A program made the translations under genes and the position numbers. From positions 1-41,340 of IMG/VR virus record IMGVR_UViG_2778261227_000005: DNA of 41,340 nt, one strand, 5' to 3'. The DNA is from a virus. Lineage: Duplodnaviria > Heunggongvirae > Uroviricota > Caudoviricetes. Below, piece after piece: positions 11,132 to 18,271 of the stretch. The notes beneath the pieces were generated by a model that did no database searches, was not told where the DNA came from, and saw nothing but the letters and a program-made list of their open reading frames with translations. Numbering within the stretch: position 1 is the first letter of the stretch; each line of letters begins with the position of its first letter.

Positions 11132-12325
11132 TTAAACCCCTTTGACAACGTCAGCGTTGACCTGTGGAACCCCGATTTCAGCGGCCAGATTCATGGCGGC
11201 TATTACCAGGTTACTGACGGCCAGCGGATACAGCAGGCTGACCATATTTTTACTATGACTTCCCGGATTGCTCAGGCGGGTACGTATGGCATCCACTGCG
11301 CTGGCGTCCATAATGTCCGTCAGTTGTTTACCGGCCCGTTGCAGTTTGAACGTCAGAAATTCTTCAAGGTGATTGTCCAGAGGCAGAAGTTCGACCACCT
11401 CACAGCGCTGAACGACTTCGCGGACTTCCATGTTGCGTTCAGACAGTTTTGTCGCCAGTTCCGGCTGGCCAATCAGCACGATGGACAGCAGCTTTTTGAA
11501 ACCGGACTCCAGCTCAAAAAAGCGTTTGAGGTGTTTCAGTGTCGGAATGGGCAGACTGTGAGCCTCCTCAATCACCAGAACGTGGCTGAACCCCGCCTGG
11601 CTGCTGTCTTTCAGGACGCGATGCAACTGGCGAAAGCGGGCGTCCTGACTGCGTCTGATGCTTTCCAGTGGTGCGATGGTACTGATAATGGCTTCGGCAA
11701 TCGCTGCTGCCTTCAGAGTTTTCCCTTTCACATCGTTGTCTTCCATAGCGATGACGTATGGCTCGATAACAATTACCGGCGCATTCTCGCGGTTGATACG
11801 TTCAGTCAGGTCGCGGCGCAGCGTGGATTTACCCGCACCGGACTCACCGATGACGGCCATAAACCCACCATGACGGGCTGTCTGGTACAACGCCTCACGC
11901 ACGTAGCGAATGTCCGGGGTGGTGAACACATCATCAGAACCCTGCATGGCTTCGTCGGCGAACGGGTCACGGAAAAGACCAAACGCTTTTTTGGTTGCTG
12001 GAAATAACACCTGTTTTTTGAGTAACATATTCTCTTCCTCACTGAGGCTCGTTTTATCTGTGGTACCCGCTGTACGGGGCGTGGCCGCGCCCTGTACAGC
12101 ATCAAAACTCTTCGTTGTATCAATCCCCTGACTTTCCAGCCAGGACGCAAGACGCCGGCGCACTTCTCCGGGGCTGGTGCGGGGCCACGCGTTATGATTC
12201 ACAATCTGGGCCAGCGTGGCCTCAGAAACATCGACAGCTCTCGCCACCACCGCCTGTGGAATACGTGCCTCTTTCAGTTGCTGCTTCAGTACCAGCATGT
12301 TTCCCTCCTCAGTTGCCGTTAACAA
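11132..12325 (-). CDS. Transposition ATPase, MuB-like target DNA activator (397 aa)
   Basis: Walker A VIGESGAGKST, AAA+-like core, N-terminal HTH-like region; lies immediately downstream of the transposase and overlaps it by 17 nt. Confidence 0.8.
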   Translation of the reverse strand: MLTATEEGNMLVLKQQLKEARIPQAVVARAVDVSEATLAQIVNHNAWPRTSPGEVRRRLASWLESQGIDTTKSFDAVQGAATPRTAGTTDKTSLSEEENMLLKKQVLFPATKKAFGLFRDPFADEAMQGSDDVFTTPDIRYVREALYQTARHGGFMAVIGESGAGKSTLRRDLTERINRENAPVIVIEPYVIAMEDNDVKGKTLKAAAIAEAIISTIAPLESIRRSQDARFRQLHRVLKDSSQAGFSHVLVIEEAHSLPIPTLKHLKRFFELESGFKKLLSIVLIGQPELATKLSERNMEVREVVQRCEVVELLPLDNHLEEFLTFKLQRAGKQLTDIMDASAVDAIRTRLSNPGSHSKNMVSLLYPLAVSNLVIAAMNLAAEIGVPQVNADVVKGV

Positions 12326-14078
12326 TGCTGATAACGCTGCTGCGGGCCGGCGTGGTCAGCGTGGCCATGACTTCATCCAGTGCGGCTTCCGGTACGCCGT
12401 CCGGGTACTGTGCCGTTAACTGGCGGTAATGTTCCGGCGTCCAGGTAAGGCCGTTGGCGCTGAACTTCCCGCGCAGAGCTTTCGCGGCCTCCACATGAGT
12501 CATGGGACGCTGTTCAGTGCGCGTTCCGCGTACGTCAGAGGCCTGGCCTCGCTTCGGCATATAGGCCGGAAGTGTGGCGTCATCAATATGTTTATACGGG
12601 TCAAGCCGCCCGCCGAACGGCAGCGCCTTCGCCTTGCGTGCGGCAGCTGCATCTGCGGCGTTGTCTGTACTGGTGACCAGCGCTTCGGTTTCTTTTGCCG
12701 CCATCTGCGCCGGGGTTTCCGGCAGGGCTTTGTAACTTTCGCCAAATACCGCCGCGCCTTCAGCAAAGCCAAACTCGTTCTTTCTGACCTCTTCGACCAG
12801 GAAGAACGTCTCGTGGCCGTCCTCACCGGTCAGAACCACCTGTGCCACATCGCTGCGCCACGGGTTACGGGTAATCATCAGTTTTTCACCGACCAGTACG
12901 CCCGGTACCGTTGATACGTCAAATTCAGTGCCCCGGAACGAGACACGAAGTTTTGGCGTGACTTTGCGGAGTTCTGGTGCCGCCACAGCCAGTTCACGAC
13001 ATACCTCAACGGAAGGCGCTTTTTTCAGCTGCTCAGCAGTAATCTTCAGCCAGATATCCGTGCGGGTTTTACCGTGGCGGCTGTGAACAGCCGTGGCGTT
13101 AAAGTGGCTGCGCCATTTCGCGGCCAGCGCGTTGAGTTCTTCCAGACTGTGAACCGGCCGGAACTTCAGACCCGGCTCCAGCTTGCGTTCGATAATGTCA
13201 CGCGCCTTTTCCACCTGTCCGGTGGCGCGGGCGTTATGCGGCTTGTGCGCTATCAGGTCAATGCCCAGTGAGCGGCACATGTTTTTCGTCATACCCGCGG
13301 TGTTTGCCGAGCCGGGGTCGAGATAGAGTATTTTTGGCACGCCGTGCAGCACGTCTGCGCCGCCACGCTCCTGCATGGCGTTGATAAGCACAGAACACAG
13401 GTTCTCACCGGATTCCGCACCCGTCACATACTCAACGTAAATCCAGCCGCTGGCATGGTCGGTAATCTCGTAACTCCACACGCGGTCACTGGCGATACGG
13501 GCAAGGTTAGCGGGTTTGTTCTTGTAGAACTTCGCGCTGTCCATCACCTGCAGCCCTTTGTGTCCATTGCTCAGGTAGTAAAGCGTGCAGAGCGAGGCAT
13601 CAATCTGCCAGACATGATTGGGATGCAGACTGGCCACTTCGGTATGCGGCGCAGGGGCATCCAGTTGTTCCGGGTGCAGGCCATAGTTACGCAGGGCACG
13701 ACTGATGGCATCTTCGGACAACGGGAAAAACTCACCGGTGGTTTCATCTGTTCTGCCTGCGGAGATAAAGCCGTTAGCCCGCAGGGTTTCCACTGCATCC
13801 GCGATGGAATAGAGACGCTTACCGTTCTTGCGGGTGGCCTCACGTAGTGTGGCAGATATCAGCGCGGCTTCGTCGCGGGTCAGGGCGCTGCGCCCGGCAT
13901 CGGCGCGTTTTTTGCGTTTATCAGTCACAGATACCTCCTTCAGCCTGCGCAGCAGAGTGGCGCGGGACATGCCAAGTTCAGCACAGGCAGCGTCGTATAT
14001 TGCACCGCGTTTACCATGCCCCGCGTCACGTGCCGCGCGGGCGACATAAACCAGTCGTTCAGTCAGGGCAGCATTCAT
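12309..14078 (-). CDS. Mu-type DDE transposase (MuA-like, 589 aa)
   Basis: N-terminal DNA-binding region, RNase H-like core with HVWQIDAS and ILYLDPGSANTA motifs; positioned ner - x - A - B as in transposable phages. Confidence 0.85.
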   Translation of the reverse strand: MNAALTERLVYVARAARDAGHGKRGAIYDAACAELGMSRATLLRRLKEVSVTDKRKKRADAGRSALTRDEAALISATLREATRKNGKRLYSIADAVETLRANGFISAGRTDETTGEFFPLSEDAISRALRNYGLHPEQLDAPAPHTEVASLHPNHVWQIDASLCTLYYLSNGHKGLQVMDSAKFYKNKPANLARIASDRVWSYEITDHASGWIYVEYVTGAESGENLCSVLINAMQERGGADVLHGVPKILYLDPGSANTAGMTKNMCRSLGIDLIAHKPHNARATGQVEKARDIIERKLEPGLKFRPVHSLEELNALAAKWRSHFNATAVHSRHGKTRTDIWLKITAEQLKKAPSVEVCRELAVAAPELRKVTPKLRVSFRGTEFDVSTVPGVLVGEKLMITRNPWRSDVAQVVLTGEDGHETFFLVEEVRKNEFGFAEGAAVFGESYKALPETPAQMAAKETEALVTSTDNAADAAAARKAKALPFGGRLDPYKHIDDATLPAYMPKRGQASDVRGTRTEQRPMTHVEAAKALRGKFSANGLTWTPEHYRQLTAQYPDGVPEAALDEVMATLTTPARSSVISIVNGN

Positions 14079-14081
14079 TGG

Positions 14082-14993
14082 TTATGCCTCCAGCCCGTTA
14101 ATCTGTGGCGTCGGCTCAGTCAGCCATGAAGGCGCTGCATTGCCTGTTGGCTCGTCCGGCAGGTCAAATGTGGAGCGCAGGCTACGCGCTGTGCTTTCCA
14201 GTTGACAGACCAGGCCTGCCATGAAGTCTCTGGGGGTATCAATCATGTTTTCAGCACAATATGCGCACAGTGTCTCAAAAGCGCTGGACAGTCGAACGGC
14301 GATAGCAGATTCCGCCTCAACCGCTAATGCTGTCACTTCCGCCCGCAGCTTCTTAACCTCCTCATCAGGCTCAGGCGGCTGAATACGGGATTTCTTTTCC
14401 AGTCTGGTAGAGAGAGAATCAATTTTTTCATTTTTATCGGCGAGTACGCGCTGTTGTGCTGCGTTGGTTTCGCGCGCTTCGCGCAGGGCCTGGCGAAGTT
14501 CGCGTACTGACATGCGATCAACGTCGTCAAGCGTCAGGCCGGCAACAGTGCCACCATCAGCCAGTTCGGCAAGGTTTTCATCGTCTTCCGTCATTAACTC
14601 GAATAATTTGGCTTTTCCTAAAAGCGCAAACGTCTGCGCTTTTGACTCAAGTTGTGGTGATAAATATTTTATTGATGCCTGCATCATTACCTGTGCAGTA
14701 CGCTTTGACATTGATAATTCAGACTCGACAATATTTATGAAATCACCATGTGGTTCATTTTCTTTCAGTATTATCAGTCGTTTACCTGCCTCTAGCATGG
14801 CCTCAGCACTTTGTGCCATATAAAAGCGTGCTTCGTGAACAATGCGATCACGTTCATAAGGCAGACCATCGCCGAACTGCTGCATGATCTCCACGCGGTG
14901 TTGTGCCATGGTATTAAGACTGATGTTGAGATCATCAGACAGCGGCACCTCAGCATTCAGATCAGTGGACATTGGTGATTTGGTACGTCCCAT
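14082..14993 (-). CDS. Hypothetical protein (303 aa) between ner and the transposase
   Basis: Intact ORF, coiled-coil-rich middle region; no recognised motif. Confidence 0.65.
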   Translation of the reverse strand: MGRTKSPMSTDLNAEVPLSDDLNISLNTMAQHRVEIMQQFGDGLPYERDRIVHEARFYMAQSAEAMLEAGKRLIILKENEPHGDFINIVESELSMSKRTAQVMMQASIKYLSPQLESKAQTFALLGKAKLFELMTEDDENLAELADGGTVAGLTLDDVDRMSVRELRQALREARETNAAQQRVLADKNEKIDSLSTRLEKKSRIQPPEPDEEVKKLRAEVTALAVEAESAIAVRLSSAFETLCAYCAENMIDTPRDFMAGLVCQLESTARSLRSTFDLPDEPTGNAAPSWLTEPTPQINGLEA

Positions 14994-15003
14994 TGATTAC
15001 TCC

Positions 15004-15312
15004 TTATAAACGACTACCTGAAATGACACGTTGGTTGATTTCGTTAATACGATCCTGCGCTCGTGCCATCTCGTTACTGTGAGCCATGGCGATCTGCAGT
15101 AACTGGATGCCCGGTGCAAAACGTCCATTCTCCAGTTTCAGGGCCAGCCCTTCTTCAATGAGGGTGTTGAGTGCCCGATTAATGTTTGCTGGTGACTCGT
15201 GCAGTGCTGCCGCCAGTTCACCGTTGGAGATACCGTTCAGAGCGTGGCCACGTAACGCCTTAAGAACACGCAAAATACGGGTACCTGCGCTTGATGTATT
15301 TGGTTTATTCAT
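15004..15312 (-). CDS. Winged-helix DNA-binding protein (102 aa)
   Basis: RILRVLKALRGHALNGISNGELAAALHESPANINRALNTLIEEGL is HTH-like; overlaps ner by 4 nt. Confidence 0.65.
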   Translation of the reverse strand: MNKPNTSSAGTRILRVLKALRGHALNGISNGELAAALHESPANINRALNTLIEEGLALKLENGRFAPGIQLLQIAMAHSNEMARAQDRINEINQRVISGSRL

Positions 15313-15533
15313 GACACCTCCTTAAGGATACCGGGGGTAACTTCTTTACCTATTGCAACCGATAGATCTCGCAAAATCCGATAAGTCAAACGACCACGTG
15401 GTAGTTCACTTTTACCAGCCCAGCGACTGACTGCCTGTGTGACTGTTCGTGGCTCATAGCCTGCGTTAAGCGCGAACTGGCGCAAGCTACTGCCTCGTTC
15501 AACTAGTCGTGCCCGAACTTGTTGTTTATTCAT
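15309..15533 (-). CDS. ner: Ner/Nlp-family DNA-binding regulator
   Basis: 74 aa; LRQFALNAGYEPRTVTQAVSRWAGKSE...IGKEVTPGIL fits the Ner winged-HTH pattern; first gene of the leftward early operon, divergent from the repressor. Confidence 0.75.
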   Translation of the reverse strand: MNKQQVRARLVERGSSLRQFALNAGYEPRTVTQAVSRWAGKSELPRGRLTYRILRDLSVAIGKEVTPGILKEVS

Positions 15534-15561
15534 ATGCGGATAGTTCCAGTTGGGTTATCAT

Positions 15562-15581
15562 GTACTCAATATGAATAAATG
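15562..15581. promoter_or_regulatory. 20-bp perfect palindrome TGAATAAATGTACTTATTCA in the repressor/ner divergent region; candidate operator
   Basis: 7-bp arms TGAATAA/TTATTCA around ATGTAC; an ATGTACT half-site recurs just upstream (15550-15556). Confidence 0.4.
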
Positions 15582-15606
15582 TACTTATTCAAAATAAATA
15601 AATCAA

Positions 15607-16038
15607 GTGGAATTACGCAAAATGAATAACAAAGATGTTAACGCTGTGCTTTCCCGGTTAATGTCACTATTCCAAGCAGAGAATGATAGTGAGTTGGCAA
15701 GAGCGCTTAACGTCAACAGGCAGACACTTGCAAGTTGGAGGAAGCGTGATTCTGTGCCTTATGCAATTTGCATAAACATCGCAGAAGAAAAGGGGGTTTC
15801 TTTAGATTGGTTGCTAACAGGTAGAAAACAAGGTTTATCAAAAGAAGTAGACGTAACTCCGACGCAAGTGCAGTTTAGCCAAGCTGACCTTACTATGCTT
15901 GAGCTTTTAAAGCAGCTAGACCCCGAGGTTCGTAACGATCTTCTGCGAGGCGCTGCGGAAAAACAGCGAGTGATCGAGATGGAAAAACAACTGAAGGAAT
16001 TATCCGCAACGATTGAGCGGTTAAAAAATGTGGGTTAA
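15607..16038 (+). CDS. CI-like phage repressor (HTH, phage_CI_repr-type N-terminal domain)
   Basis: LARALNVNRQTLASWRKRDSVPYAICINIAEEKGVSLDWLLTG is typical of the phage CI-repressor HTH; divergent from ner. Frame opens with GTG at 15607; ATG at 15622 is an alternative start; no clear RBS, so possibly leaderless. Confidence 0.75.
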   Translation: MELRKMNNKDVNAVLSRLMSLFQAENDSELARALNVNRQTLASWRKRDSVPYAICINIAEEKGVSLDWLLTGRKQGLSKEVDVTPTQVQFSQADLTMLELLKQLDPEVRNDLLRGAAEKQRVIEMEKQLKELSATIERLKNVG

Positions 16039-16058
16039 TCTATTCCCAATGAGAACAA

Positions 16059-16089
16059 TTGACAAGGTTATCAAACCTCTTCGTTATAT
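16059..16089 (+). promoter_or_regulatory. Candidate sigma70-like promoter (TTGACA ... TTATAT, 19-nt spacer) upstream of the 297-aa gene
   Basis: TTGACA at 16059-16064 and TTATAT at 16084-16089; spacer is longer than optimal, so weak. Confidence 0.25.
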
Positions 16090-16160: not shown

Positions 16161-17054
16161 ATGAGTGGTGATGTGAGAAATTATCGTATTGAGTTTCATC
16201 AGCTATCGTTTAAGGCCACAGATCAGCTGGCAAATCTCGGAGATTCTTTTCAATCTGTAATTGATAAACAGAGCCCTTCCTCTTCAAACCATGAGGGTTT
16301 TACTAGAGAAATTTGGGGGTTGAAAAAACGCGCGGATGGTTCTTTTAGTGGAGAGTTGAGAAAATTTCGCAACTCGAACATTCCAGATAAAGGTGCACCA
16401 GGGAAACAGTCTACCCCTATTCCACTTGCCAAGGATGAAGGGATCATTGAGCGCAATTTCTTTGTATTCTATCCCCGAATCAATGTTATAGGTTGGCACT
16501 ATAATCATATGGCTTGTGGTATAAGCCGTTTTAGTGCATTTCTTTCAACTATCTTTGGTTCAAAGGTTAAGCCCGCACCTTTGCTGGAAAAAGATGCAAT
16601 CGCTAGGCTTATGAGAGGAGATGTCAAAATGAAAAAAATCCAGTTGACGATTCCTCGCCCCCGTAATCCTGAGTTTTACCCTGATACTGATTTCAGTCAA
16701 AAGACACTACAACTGCTTGGTGATGCAGGTGCCGATACAATGCAAATTGTAATGGGGATTAATACTCGCCGTGGCGATAGTGATGGTAGGCTTAAGCAGA
16801 ATATAAAATTTGCTATGCAAGAGTTAGTCGAGTTTGGGGCGAAAAAGGCTGTAATTGATGTGTTCGATGCTGATGGTGTTGTCCATCCTGTGGATTTGAT
16901 TGCCGAGCGTATTTCGTCCTATCAATCGGTGGTTACTGACGCTCGTTTCCCTCCAGCCGAAACCATGTACCGTCTAATCGATACTGCGTATGCTGAAAAC
17001 CGGGAGAGTATCAATGCATATATTGGAGAAGATGAACTCGGCCCTATTGCTTAG
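16161..17054 (+). CDS. Hypothetical soluble protein (297 aa); RexA-like by position and partner, not by demonstrated homology
   Basis: AT-rich ORF immediately downstream of the repressor on the same strand; overlaps the following 4-TM gene by 41 nt; no catalytic motif recognised. Confidence 0.75.
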   Translation: MSGDVRNYRIEFHQLSFKATDQLANLGDSFQSVIDKQSPSSSNHEGFTREIWGLKKRADGSFSGELRKFRNSNIPDKGAPGKQSTPIPLAKDEGIIERNFFVFYPRINVIGWHYNHMACGISRFSAFLSTIFGSKVKPAPLLEKDAIARLMRGDVKMKKIQLTIPRPRNPEFYPDTDFSQKTLQLLGDAGADTMQIVMGINTRRGDSDGRLKQNIKFAMQELVEFGAKKAVIDVFDADGVVHPVDLIAERISSYQSVVTDARFPPAETMYRLIDTAYAENRESINAYIGEDELGPIA

Positions 17055-17451
17055 TTTATTGATTGGATGTGGGATTGGTTTTCTCTACTGGTTCAAGTTG
17101 CCCCATATGCCAGTAGCCGCAATCCCAAACTTCATGACTACATTGTCCAGTGTCTTTGCAACGTTGTTAGGTTTTATTATTACAGCAATTGCACTACTTG
17201 CATCATTGCTTGATAAACCGTTACTTAAAAACATGCAAAAAACCGGACATTACAAGCGTCTGATGACCGATGCATTCTACACTTGCTTAGTTTTGCTAGT
17301 GTTGGTGTTGACATGTTTGATTGGGTTGATGCTGCAAAGTAAGCATCAAGAGATTGTAGCCGCTATCCTCATTGGGCTTGTTGTTATGTCTATGTTGTGT
17401 TTATTACAAACAGGTAGGCGATTATTCAATATAATCAAAGTGATATCATAA
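17014..17451 (+). CDS. Small 4-TM membrane protein (~146 aa); RexB-like by architecture
   Basis: Four hydrophobic segments (LLLSLLIGCGIGFLYWF; FATLLGFIITAIALLASLL; YTCLVLLVLVLTCLIGLML; IVAAILIGLVVMSMLCLL). Start chosen at ATG 17014 with GGGAGAG 5-7 nt upstream; the track ORF begins at 16990. Confidence 0.7.
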   Translation: MHILEKMNSALLLSLLIGCGIGFLYWFKLPHMPVAAIPNFMTTLSSVFATLLGFIITAIALLASLLDKPLLKNMQKTGHYKRLMTDAFYTCLVLLVLVLTCLIGLMLQSKHQEIVAAILIGLVVMSMLCLLQTGRRLFNIIKVIS

Positions 17452-17503
17452 CAATGCACCATCAGGTGCATTGTTATGCAAGACTACTTACCTCCTTCTG
17501 AGC

Positions 17504-18271
17504 CTACTCTAAATTACTTACAATAAGTTCGCGCCGTAGTGTTCCCTTTCCTGCAAGACTGTAGTTGACCTTCACACAGTGAATGTTCAGACCGTTAAAA
17601 ACCTGCCGCATTTCCGGGATATCGTTGACCGATATAATCATCTTTCCTCTGATGCAACGGGCCAGCTCTGCCAACCGCGAGTAGTTCCCTTCAGGAAAAT
17701 CCACACCATAGCCTTCCGTACCCAGGTACGGTGGGTCGCAGTAGAACAGCGTGTGCGGACGGTCATAACGCTCAATGCACTGTTGCCAGTCCATGTGTTC
17801 TATCACCGTTCTGGAAAGTCGCAGGTGTGCCGCTGAGAGCTCTTCCTCAATACGCAGCAGGTTGAAGCGTGGCGGGGATGTGGTGGAGGTGCCGAAACTA
17901 TGCTCTGCCACCTTGCCACCAAACGCCTGCTTCTGGAGGTAGTAGAACCGTGCTGCACGCTGGATATCCGTCAGGGTTTCCTCCGGGGTGATCTGCAGCC
18001 ATTTGTAGATCTGCCGGCTAACCAGCGCCCATTTGAACTGGCGGACAAATTCTTCTAGGTGATGCTTTACCACCCGATACAGATTTACCAGTTCACCGTT
18101 GATATCGTTAATGACTTCGATCTTACCTGGTGTCTTAAGAAAATAGAGCGCAGCTGCGCCGCAGAACGGCTCCACATAACATTCATGCGCTGGAAACAGC
18201 GGCAGAATGTGTTTTGCCAGGCGGCGTTTGCCCCCAATCCATGGAACGATGGGTAATGTCTGCATTTTCAT
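17504..18271 (-). CDS. dam: Dam-family N6-adenine DNA methyltransferase (D12 class), no cognate nuclease adjacent
   Basis: WIGGKRRL, motif I EPFCGAAALYF and motif IV DPPY in Dam-like order; 255 aa. Confidence 0.85.
   Translation of the reverse strand: MKMQTLPIVPWIGGKRRLAKHILPLFPAHECYVEPFCGAAALYFLKTPGKIEVINDINGELVNLYRVVKHHLEEFVRQFKWALVSRQIYKWLQITPEETLTDIQRAARFYYLQKQAFGGKVAEHSFGTSTTSPPRFNLLRIEEELSAAHLRLSRTVIEHMDWQQCIERYDRPHTLFYCDPPYLGTEGYGVDFPEGNYSRLAELARCIRGKMIISVNDIPEMRQVFNGLNIHCVKVNYSLAGKGTLRRELIVSNLE

What the first reader, a model, noticed from the sequence alone, without database searches (positions are those of the whole stretch)
15534..15625. Palindromic operator candidate and possibly leaderless repressor start
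The 73-bp repressor/ner divergent region carries a perfect 20-bp palindrome (TGAATAAATGTACTTATTCA) and a repeated ATGTACT half-site, the expected form of a lysis-lysogeny switch operator. The repressor frame opens with GTG 15607 without an obvious Shine-Dalgarno sequence, so it may be translated from a leaderless mRNA, as lambda cI is from PRM.
Basis: partly seen in the sequence, partly recalled or inferred. Interest (0 to 1): 0.35.

Follow-up and report, generated by a model that had tools for sequence, protein, structure and literature searches.

The report
Prophage immunity switch: operators and promoters
The flagged stretch is the on/off control region of a Mu-like transposable prophage of E. 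coli, where a phage repressor most likely binds several 17-bp sites around the early promoter; the "perfect palindrome" is two neighbouring half-sites, and the repressor most likely starts at an ordinary ATG, so this is an ordinary, though neatly built, lysis-lysogeny switch.

Summary
The sequence is there, but it is not a perfect palindrome. TGAATAA-ATGTAC-TTATTCA (15572-15591) has 7-bp arms and a non-symmetric 6-bp spacer. On its own it is near chance (6.5% of shuffles). The ATGTACT repeat is not significant (28% of shuffles).

Comparison with about 20 related switches, down to 38-45% repressor identity, shows a fixed layout:
- a conserved early promoter on the minus strand (-35 15606-15601, -10 15583-15578);
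- three 17-bp operator positions: a 15562-78, b 15585-601, c 15613-29, spaced 23 and 28 bp;
- a fourth site inside the repressor gene (d, 15759-75).

Half-site sequences change with the repressor's DNA-binding domain, but their positions do not.

GTG 15607 is absent or out of frame in the relatives. ATG 15622 is the conserved start and has a weak, positionally conserved GGA upstream. No conserved -10 lies where a leaderless transcript would need one. A conserved TAnnnT at 15556-61 suggests a repressor promoter giving a leader of about 54 nt.

Verdict: a P2/186-style switch on a BcepMu-like prophage, a new member of a known kind. No binding or transcript data exist.

The parts
15309..15533 (-). 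Ner-like first gene of the early operon (74 aa, BcepMu gp16-like small HTH protein)
   Evidence: ORF. Pfam HTH_35 E=0.007, below cutoff. PHROG 8503 E=1e-34. TIGR04111 BcepMu_gp16 29.1 bits against a cutoff of 34. 98.6% identical in phage KP12 and 65% in Pseudomonas phage BR319a. Not annotated by PGAP in the E. coli record.
15543..15547 (-). GGAAC, Shine-Dalgarno-like element of the ner-like gene, 10 nt before its ATG
   Evidence: Read from the sequence. GTTCC is conserved in nearly all relatives. Duplex energy with the 16S 3' end is -3.3 kcal/mol. Function is inferred.
15556..15561 (+). TATCAT, candidate -10 hexamer of the repressor promoter (Pc); predicted start near 15568
   Evidence: A TAnnnT hexamer sits at this exact position, immediately before GT(A/T)CTC, in every lineage: TATCAT, TATGAT, TATTGT, TAAGAT, TAAGCT, TAAAAT, TAATAT, TAATCT. 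The weight-matrix score is weak (2.4-4.5) because the -35 is poor. Inferred, not mapped.
15562..15578 (.). Operator position a: GTACTCA-ATA-TGAATAA. The right half is strong. The left half is shared by all immunity types and so may belong to Pc rather than to the operator.
   Evidence: The right half changes with the repressor lineage, while the left half GT(A/T)CTC(A/G) stays nearly constant.
15572..15591 (.).
15578..15583 (-). -10 hexamer TACATT of the early promoter Pe; predicted start near 15571
   Evidence: Top-scoring minus-strand promoter at the same aligned position in all 21 distinct related sequences (score 5.0-13.4). In the KP12 group it is TTGACA-16-TACAAT. TAnnnT is kept in distant lineages. 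Not mapped experimentally.
15585..15601 (.). Operator b: TTATTCA-AAA-TAAATAA, filling the Pe spacer
   Evidence: 6 of 7 arm pairs here. Perfect TTATTCAAAATGAATAA in relatives L004, L013 and L015. A palindrome of the lineage's own half-site occupies this position in the lineages examined.
15601..15606 (-). -35 hexamer TTGATT of Pe
   Evidence: The TCAA core on the plus strand is conserved in all lineages.
15609..15611 (+). GGA, weak Shine-Dalgarno-like element 10 nt before ATG 15622; GTG 15607 lies just upstream of it
   Evidence: A purine-rich GGA/GAG/AGG lies 8-10 nt before the start in every lineage. GGAATT sits at the same distance in BR319a. The energy is only -3.3 kcal/mol, and 35% of shuffles do as well.
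15613..15629 (.). Operator c: TTACGCA-AAA-TGAATAA, covering the repressor start codon
   Evidence: Perfect TTATTCAAAATGAATAA in L005. BR319a has TTTCCTATTTTGGGAAA over its TTG start.
15622..16038 (+). Repressor gene (138 aa): N-terminal Phage_CI_repr HTH, a linker and a long C-terminal helix
   Evidence: Pfam PF07022 E=1.2e-17. Weak match to the 186 CI N-terminal domain, 2fjr, E=0.03. PGAP start at 15622. N-termini align at this ATG or at a TTG in all relatives. Secondary structure comes from a low-confidence model.
15759..15775 (.). Candidate distal operator d: perfect palindrome TTATGCA-ATT-TGCATAA inside the repressor gene (codons P46-N52), 146 bp from c
   Evidence: 0-2 mismatches to the operator patterns. 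All six third-codon positions are invariant in 15 coding sequences, against 15% overall. Kept as a palindrome in 34 family members: 86% of cells paired against 21-53% in slid controls. The non-homologous KP12-type repressor gene carries a site of its own type at +151.

Best explanation
The region 15534-15630, plus a site at 15759-75, is the immunity switch of a BcepMu-like transposable prophage. Its repressor is a 186-CI-type helix-turn-helix protein.

Early promoter. The early operon (ner-like gene, IclR-type HTH, DUF3102, transposase) is read leftward from promoter Pe. Its -35 is TTGATT at 15606-01 and its -10 is TACATT at 15583-78, giving a start near 15571.

Operators. Repressor dimers most likely bind 17-bp operators of the form TTATTCA-N3-TGAATAA. 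Operator b fills the Pe spacer. The right half of a lies just downstream of the Pe -10. Together they bracket the -10 hexamer and keep RNA polymerase off Pe, silencing transposition.

Operator c covers the repressor's own ribosome-binding region and start codon. It probably gives negative autoregulation or cooperative anchoring. Site d, inside the gene, probably strengthens occupancy by a short DNA loop.

Repressor expression. The repressor is translated from ATG 15622 behind a weak GGA. Its mRNA probably comes from a weak promoter with a -10 at 15556-61, facing Pe, which gives a leader of about 54 nt.

Shown by comparison: the layout, its conservation, co-variation of the half-sites with the DNA-binding domain, and the start codon. 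Inferred: binding itself, the transcription starts, looping and autoregulation.
For: Gene content and family:
-.

Early promoter Pe:
- It is the best minus-strand promoter at the same aligned place in all 21 distinct sequences. In the KP12 group it is a near-consensus TTGACA-16-TACAAT.

Three operator positions:
- Three repeats spaced 23 and 28 bp occur in the window.
- The same spacing occurs independently in Pseudomonas P2-like phage BR319a, whose repressor is only 40% identical and whose repeat sequence differs.
- Twenty lineages keep the positions (a to b 22-23 bp, b to c 28-30 bp) while the half-sites differ: TGAATAA, TGAGTAA, CGCATAA, CGTGTAA/TGGGAAA, TGCGTA.

Natural domain swap:
- The KP12-type repressor shares the C-terminal 80 residues (62% identity) but has an unrelated N-terminal HTH.
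- Its ner-like protein is 98.6% identical.
- Its half-sites are replaced at the same positions.

Statistics:
- The 17-mer has four hits in 41 kb, all within 214 bp, against 0.14 expected.
- None of 5000 local shuffles gave two or more hits.

Site d:
- Synonymous positions are frozen.
- Palindromy is kept with covarying changes.
- A type-specific counterpart exists in the unrelated KP12-type gene.

Start codon:
-.

Precedents:
- 186 CI has three operators two helical turns apart at pR, plus distal sites (PMC3675496).
- P2 C has repeats 22 bp apart, and P2 Pe and Pc transcripts overlap (PMC1904263).
Against: - No binding, footprint or transcript data exist for this phage group.
- The 7-6-7 repeat alone is near chance.
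- Operator a's left half is constant across immunity types, so a may be only a half-site.
- In lineages L045-47 the outward a-right/b-left pair is perfect (7 of 7) while b's own symmetry is only 4-5 of 7. This keeps the 20-mer reading alive.
- The Pc candidate has a poor -35 and a low score.
- The Shine-Dalgarno match is no better than 35% of shuffles.
- Site d could act as an mRNA hairpin instead (-11.3 kcal/mol, z -3.5). Pair 4-14 shows seven T-G cells, which an RNA helix would tolerate but a DNA palindrome would not.
- The operator patterns were partly derived from the same sequences they were scored on.
Confidence: 0.7

Rival explanations
1. The 20-bp near-palindrome TGAATAA-N6-TTATTCA is itself the main dimer-binding operator, centred on the Pe -10. 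The other TGAATAA-like copies would be secondary or fortuitous.
For: - The arms match 7 of 7 in the window, L004, L012 and also the distant L045-47. In L045-47 the inward symmetry of b is weaker.
- In most close relatives the 20-mer reaches 9 of 10 pairs.
- The arms swap together in the KP12 type, to TTGGGT-N11-ACCCAA.
- It sits exactly over the -10.
Against: - Arm complementarity drops to 2-3 of 7 in L044, L048 and L049, and to 4 of 7 in L043. All of these still have good 7-3-7 palindromes at b and c.
- Inward 17-bp palindromes occur alone at c (perfect in L005) and at d (perfect here).
- A homologue's upstream region has two perfect AATGCA-ATT-TGCATT units.
- In the 20-mer the variable base pairs of the two half-sites lie about 14 bp apart, against about 9 bp in the 17-mer. 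One helical turn is the usual geometry for HTH dimers (general knowledge).
- The arm spacing differs between immunity types (6 against 11 bp).
Confidence: 0.17
2. The repressor recognises direct repeats, as P2 C does. The right halves TGAATAA, TAAATAA and TGAATAA at 15572, 15595 and 15623 would be the recognition elements, and the left halves would matter little.
For: - The right halves are the best-kept elements in most lineages and form three direct repeats spaced 23 and 28 bp.
- P2 C uses two direct repeats 22 bp apart at the early promoter (PMC1904263).
- BR319a, which carries the same module, is a P2-like phage.
Against: - The left half of b is an inverted copy of the lineage's half-site in every lineage examined.
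- Sites d and c (in L005) and b (in L043) are clear palindromes.
- No P2 C chain appears among the solved-structure matches even at E=10, whereas the 186 CI N-terminal domain does.
Confidence: 0.08
3. The symmetry and repeats are by-products of an AT-rich promoter region and of three genes that all begin ATGAATAA. No protein reads them.
For: - 6.5% and 28% of shuffles reproduce the two observed features.
- Three of the five local TGAATAA copies overlap gene starts reading MNK or MNN.
Against: - Positions are kept while sequences change across 20 lineages.
- Half-sites co-vary with the DNA-binding domain.
- BR319a has unit c over a TTG GGA AAC start, so ATGAATAA codon preference cannot explain it.
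- Synonymous sites are frozen at d.
Confidence: 0.03
4. The repressor mRNA is leaderless or nearly so, starting at GTG 15607 or ATG 15622, as lambda cI is from PRM.
For: - The Shine-Dalgarno match is weak.
- No strong plus-strand promoter is predicted.
- TAAATA at 15595-600 would place a transcription start near 15607 (read from the sequence).
Against: - GTG is not conserved, and in most relatives it is out of frame.
- GTG has no upstream pairing to 16S rRNA (+1.6 kcal/mol).
- Leaderless translation in E. coli needs a 5' AUG (general knowledge).
- No TAnnnT is conserved 6-8 nt before either codon, while one is conserved at 15556-61.
- A purine-rich element is kept 9-11 nt before the start in all lineages.
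Confidence: 0.07

Closest known systems
Coliphage 186 CI / pR-pL switch
   Same: - Same Pfam HTH family (PF07022) and a weak match to the 186 CI N-terminal domain (2fjr).
- Several operators about two helical turns apart over the lytic promoter, plus a distal site that could loop (PMC3675496).
   Different: - The C-terminal part is a helix of about 50 residues, not the 186 CI domain that builds a 14-mer wheel. The solved-structure match covers only residues 9-72.
- The distal site is 146 bp away and lies inside the repressor gene, not about 300 bp away.
- The phage is a transposable Mu-like prophage.
Coliphage P2 C / Pe-Pc switch
   Same: - Repeated repressor sites about two turns apart at the early promoter.
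- A weak repressor promoter facing Pe, with transcripts that overlap at their 5' ends (35 nt in P2, PMC1904263; about 4 nt predicted here).
- The same repressor/ner-like module occurs in a P2-like Pseudomonas phage.
   Different: - No detectable sequence similarity to P2 C.
- The sites here are palindromic 17-mers rather than bare direct repeats.
- There are three proximal sites plus an intragenic one, rather than two.
Phage Mu c - ner - A - B control region (O1-O3, Pe, PcM)
   Same: - Gene order: a repressor divergent from a small Ner-like regulator, followed by transposition genes.
- PcM and Pe decide lysis or lysogeny (PMC3820752).
- The repressor silences the transposase operon.
   Different: - The repressor is a CI-type HTH, not the Mu repressor fold related to the MuA N-terminal domain (general knowledge of the Mu family).
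- The ner-like protein matches Pfam HTH_35 only below threshold.
- The operators do not resemble Mu's.
- The transposase matches only a generic rve core.
Lambda cI translated from the leaderless PRM transcript
   Same: Both are a maintenance repressor gene divergent from the lytic operon, with a weak ribosome-binding signal.
   Different: No promoter element is placed to start transcription at the start codon. The proposed GTG is not conserved, and a purine-rich element is kept upstream.

Membership tests
186-CI-type repressor (Pfam Phage_CI_repr, PF07022) | N-terminal HTH domain matching PF07022 above the gathering score | tested here: met
   64.4 bits against a cutoff of 22, E=1.2e-17, residues 13-74.
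186-CI-type repressor (Pfam Phage_CI_repr, PF07022) | C-terminal oligomerisation domain of 186 CI (14-mer wheel) | tested here: not met
   The match to 2fjr covers only residues 9-72. The protein is 138 aa with a predicted long C-terminal helix (low-confidence model).
186-CI-type repressor (Pfam Phage_CI_repr, PF07022) | Several operators about two helical turns apart over the lytic promoter, plus distal sites | tested here: inconclusive
   Sequence-level sites lie at 23 and 28 bp spacing, with a distal site at +146 bp. Binding was not tested.
P2-type C repressor switch | Repressor homologous to P2 C | tested here: not met
   No P2 C chain appears among the solved-structure matches up to E=10.
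P2-type C repressor switch | Repeated sites about 22 bp apart at Pe; Pe and Pc face each other with overlapping transcripts | tested here: inconclusive
   Right halves 23 bp apart bracket the predicted -10. Pc is inferred only from a conserved TAnnnT.
Mu-type c/ner control region | Repressor divergent from ner, followed by transposase genes | tested here: met
   ORF order and domains.
Mu-type c/ner control region | Mu-type repressor DNA-binding domain and a Ner (HTH_35) protein | tested here: not met
   The repressor matches PF07022 instead. The ner-like protein scores 16.7 bits against the HTH_35 cutoff of 25 and 29.1 against 34 for TIGR04111.
Leaderless mRNA (lambda cI / PRM type) | Transcript 5' end at the start codon, which is AUG in E. 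coli | not testable with these tools
   Needs 5' end mapping. Indirect tests argue against it: GTG is not conserved or is out of frame, and no conserved -10 lies 6-8 nt upstream.
Sigma-70 promoter (Pe) | -35 and -10 hexamers with a 16-18 bp spacer, conserved in position | tested here: met
   TTGATT-17-TACATT here (8 of 12 matches). It is top-ranked at the same aligned position in all 21 distinct sequences, and TTGACA-16-TACAAT in the KP12 group. The stricter consensus scan (9 of 12) missed it. Activity was not tested.

The most novel reading that the evidence does not exclude
The repressor gene carries a working operator inside the codons of its own DNA-binding domain (15759-75). This feature is kept across the whole family and was acquired independently by a non-homologous DNA-binding domain (KP12 type, +151). 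Bound repressor would then loop about 150 bp of DNA, including its own promoter-proximal coding sequence, to lock the early promoter and tune its own synthesis. The protein-coding sequence and the site it recognises would have to evolve together.
Probability: 0.4. Interest if true: 0.5.

Novelty: new member of a known kind. Interest (0 to 1): 0.3.

Why it matters
These prophages are common. The exact immunity type is in 23 complete E. coli genomes, and about 580 more carry parts of the queried region. This switch decides whether a transposable phage stays silent or starts replicative transposition.

The comparison gives a ready map of promoter, operators and start codon for experiments. It shows that one repressor/ner-like module moves between Mu-like and P2-like phages. 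It also offers a natural specificity-swap series: the same layout with at least six different half-site sequences, which is useful for studying how immunity specificities diverge. For the finding as written, the message is mainly corrective.

Tried and rejected
- The built-in consensus promoter scan found nothing in the gap because it needs 9 of 12 matches.
- IHF consensus WATCAANNNNTTR, checked by eye around 15601-15615: no match.
- RNA reading of the 20-mer: a weak hairpin with z -1.7. No Rfam family matched.
- Structure prediction from the single sequence gave mean pLDDT 56. I took only the secondary structure from it and ran no fold search.
- Burkholderia P2-like phages FLC5 and KS14 (34-38% N-domain identity) have a different first early gene (Arc-like) and other repeats. 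They were not comparable in layout.
- TGTTCC-N5-GGAACA as a window-wide motif is not enriched.
- I considered the conserved block GTTCC...TTGGGTTAT as a Ner operator. It is explained at least as well by the ner ribosome-binding site plus the Pc -10, so this is left open.
- A literature search found no operator study of BcepMu-like phages.

Full report
**What is in the sequence**

The window carries a Mu-like prophage of the BcepMu type.
- On the minus strand lie a 589-aa transposase with an rve core (12309-14078), a DUF3102 protein, an IclR-type HTH protein (15004-15312) and a 74-aa ner-like protein (15309-15533).
- On the plus strand lies a repressor with a Phage_CI_repr domain (PF07022, E=1.2e-17).
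- The same 1.1 kb is 99.8-99.9% identical in 23 complete E. coli genomes. About 580 more genomes carry parts of it.
- RefSeq starts the repressor at ATG 15622 and does not annotate the ner-like ORF.

**The observation**

TGAATAAATGTACTTATTCA lies at 15572-15591, but it is not a perfect palindrome. It has 7-bp arms around the spacer ATGTAC, and only 8 of 10 symmetric pairs match. ATGTACT occurs at 15560 and 15579.

Neither feature is significant alone.
- 6.5% of dinucleotide shuffles of the 88-bp gap give an inverted repeat at least as good.
- The window holds dozens of inverted repeats with arms of at least 7 bp.
- 28% of shuffles contain some exact 7-mer direct repeat.

**Relatives**

I fetched 22 loci whose repressors are 61-100% identical. 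I also fetched two phage records, a Pseudomonas P2-like phage, BR319a, with a 40% identical repressor and a 65% identical ner-like protein, and about 30 more distant loci. All share one layout.

**The early promoter**

A weight-matrix scan ranks the same minus-strand promoter first in all 21 distinct sequences.
- In the window it is TTGATT (15606-01), a 17-bp spacer and TACATT (15583-78).
- In the KP12 group it is TTGACA-16-TACAAT.
- In distant lineages the -35 is TTGAC(T) and the -10 keeps TAnnnT.

**Operators**

The window has three direct repeats spaced 23 and 28 bp. BR319a has three repeats with the same spacing but a different sequence. Each repeat is an imperfect 7-3-7 palindrome.
- The ideal form, TTATTCA-AAA-TGAATAA, is perfect at position b in L004 and at position c in L005.
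- That 17-mer matches the window with at most 2 mismatches at only 15562, 15585, 15613 and 15759, against 0.14 expected.
- None of 5000 local shuffles gives two matches.

Across 20 lineages the positions hold, with a to b at 22-23 bp and b to c at 28-30 bp. The half-sites differ between lineages.

A natural domain swap supports repressor binding. The KP12-type repressor keeps the C-terminal 80 residues (62% identity) but has an unrelated N-terminal HTH. Its ner-like protein is 98.6% identical. Its half-sites are replaced at the same positions.

**The 20-mer or the 17-mers?**

That outward complementarity is 7 of 7 in several lineages, but only 2-4 of 7 in L043, L044, L048 and L049. Those lineages still have palindromes at b and c.

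Stand-alone 17-bp palindromes exist at c and d. A homologue's upstream region also has two perfect AATGCA-ATT-TGCATT units.

I therefore favour 17-bp operators. The 20-mer reading keeps about 0.17. One caveat applies: the left half of a is constant across immunity types and may belong to the repressor promoter rather than to the operator.

**Site d**

TTATGCAATTTGCATAA (15759-75) lies in the codons for P-Y-A-I-C-I-N.
- All six third-codon positions are invariant among 15 coding sequences, where only 15% of third positions are invariant overall.
- Among 34 family members, 86% of cells stay paired, against 21-53% for slid controls. One pair covaries: CG 15, TA 11, TG 7.
- The unrelated KP12-type gene has a site of its own type at +151, GTACCCATTTGGGTGT in L022.
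- An mRNA-hairpin role is not excluded.

**Start codon and leader**

- GTG 15607 is GCG in L005 and GCA in L012.
- In most relatives it lies 13 nt before the ATG and so is out of frame.
- No relative has any in-frame upstream start.
- BR319a starts with TTG, aligned to ATG 15622.
- Every lineage has a purine-rich element 8-10 nt upstream, but in the window it is weak (-3.3 kcal/mol; 35% of shuffles do as well).
- A TAnnnT hexamer is conserved at 15556-61 in every lineage. It is a plausible -10 for the repressor promoter, facing Pe as in P2 (PMC1904263). Its -35 is poor.
- Nothing resembling a -10 is conserved just before either start codon.

**Comparison with known systems**

The layout works like 186 CI at pR, which has three operators two turns apart plus distal sites (PMC3675496). 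It also resembles P2 C, which has repeats 22 bp apart and overlapping Pe and Pc transcripts (PMC1904263). The gene order is that of Mu c-ner-A (PMC3820752).

The repressor belongs to PF07022. It lacks the 186 CI C-terminal domain and shows no similarity to P2 C. No Rfam family matches the region.

**Verdict**

This is an ordinary phage immunity switch, a new member of a known kind. Everything about binding and transcription starts is inference from comparison.

Noticed in passing
window 15759-15775: Perfect 17-bp palindrome TTATGCAATTTGCATAA inside the repressor's HTH-coding sequence. It is operator-like, its synonymous sites are frozen, and it is conserved as a palindrome across the family. 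A counterpart of its own type lies at +151 in the non-homologous KP12-type repressor gene.
   Followed up: yes
window 16037-16065: Three nt after the repressor stop lies TATTCCCAATGAGAACA. Many relatives have the palindrome TGTTCC-N5-GGAACA at the same place. It sits in the spacer of a minus-strand promoter-like site, TTGTCA-17-TAGATT, that would read antisense into the repressor gene.
   Followed up: partly
window 15309-15533 (-): The conserved ner-like ORF (BcepMu gp16-like, PHROG 8503) is not annotated in the RefSeq E. coli record, though it is annotated in phages KP12 and BR319a.
   Followed up: partly
L026 (Pseudomonas phage vB_Pae_BR319a), 1182-1917: The same repressor/ner-like module, with an 88-bp gap and the same 23/28-bp repeat spacing, sits in a P2-like phage (Peduoviridae) in the place of C/cox. 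This points to module exchange between Mu-like and P2-like phages.
   Followed up: partly
L044, L047-L049 upstream regions: In some lineages a-right and site d use one half-site class (CGTGTAA/TGTGTAA) while b and c use another (TGGGAAA). This recalls 186 CI, which I remember as binding two distinct sequence classes; I did not check that here.
   Followed up: no
window 17447-17478: Inverted repeat with 14-bp arms, CATAACAATGCACC-ATCA-GGTGCATTGTTATG, between convergent ORFs (16990-17451 on the plus strand, 17504-18271 on the minus strand). It could be a two-way terminator.
   Followed up: no
window 14620-14643: Inverted repeat AAAAGCGCA-AACGTC-TGCGCTTTT inside the DUF3102 gene. It looks like a terminator on both strands.
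   Followed up: no
window 15305-15629: Three consecutive regulatory genes (IclR-like, ner-like, repressor) all begin ATGAATAA. Five of the window's eleven TGAATAA copies lie in these 325 bp.
   Followed up: partly
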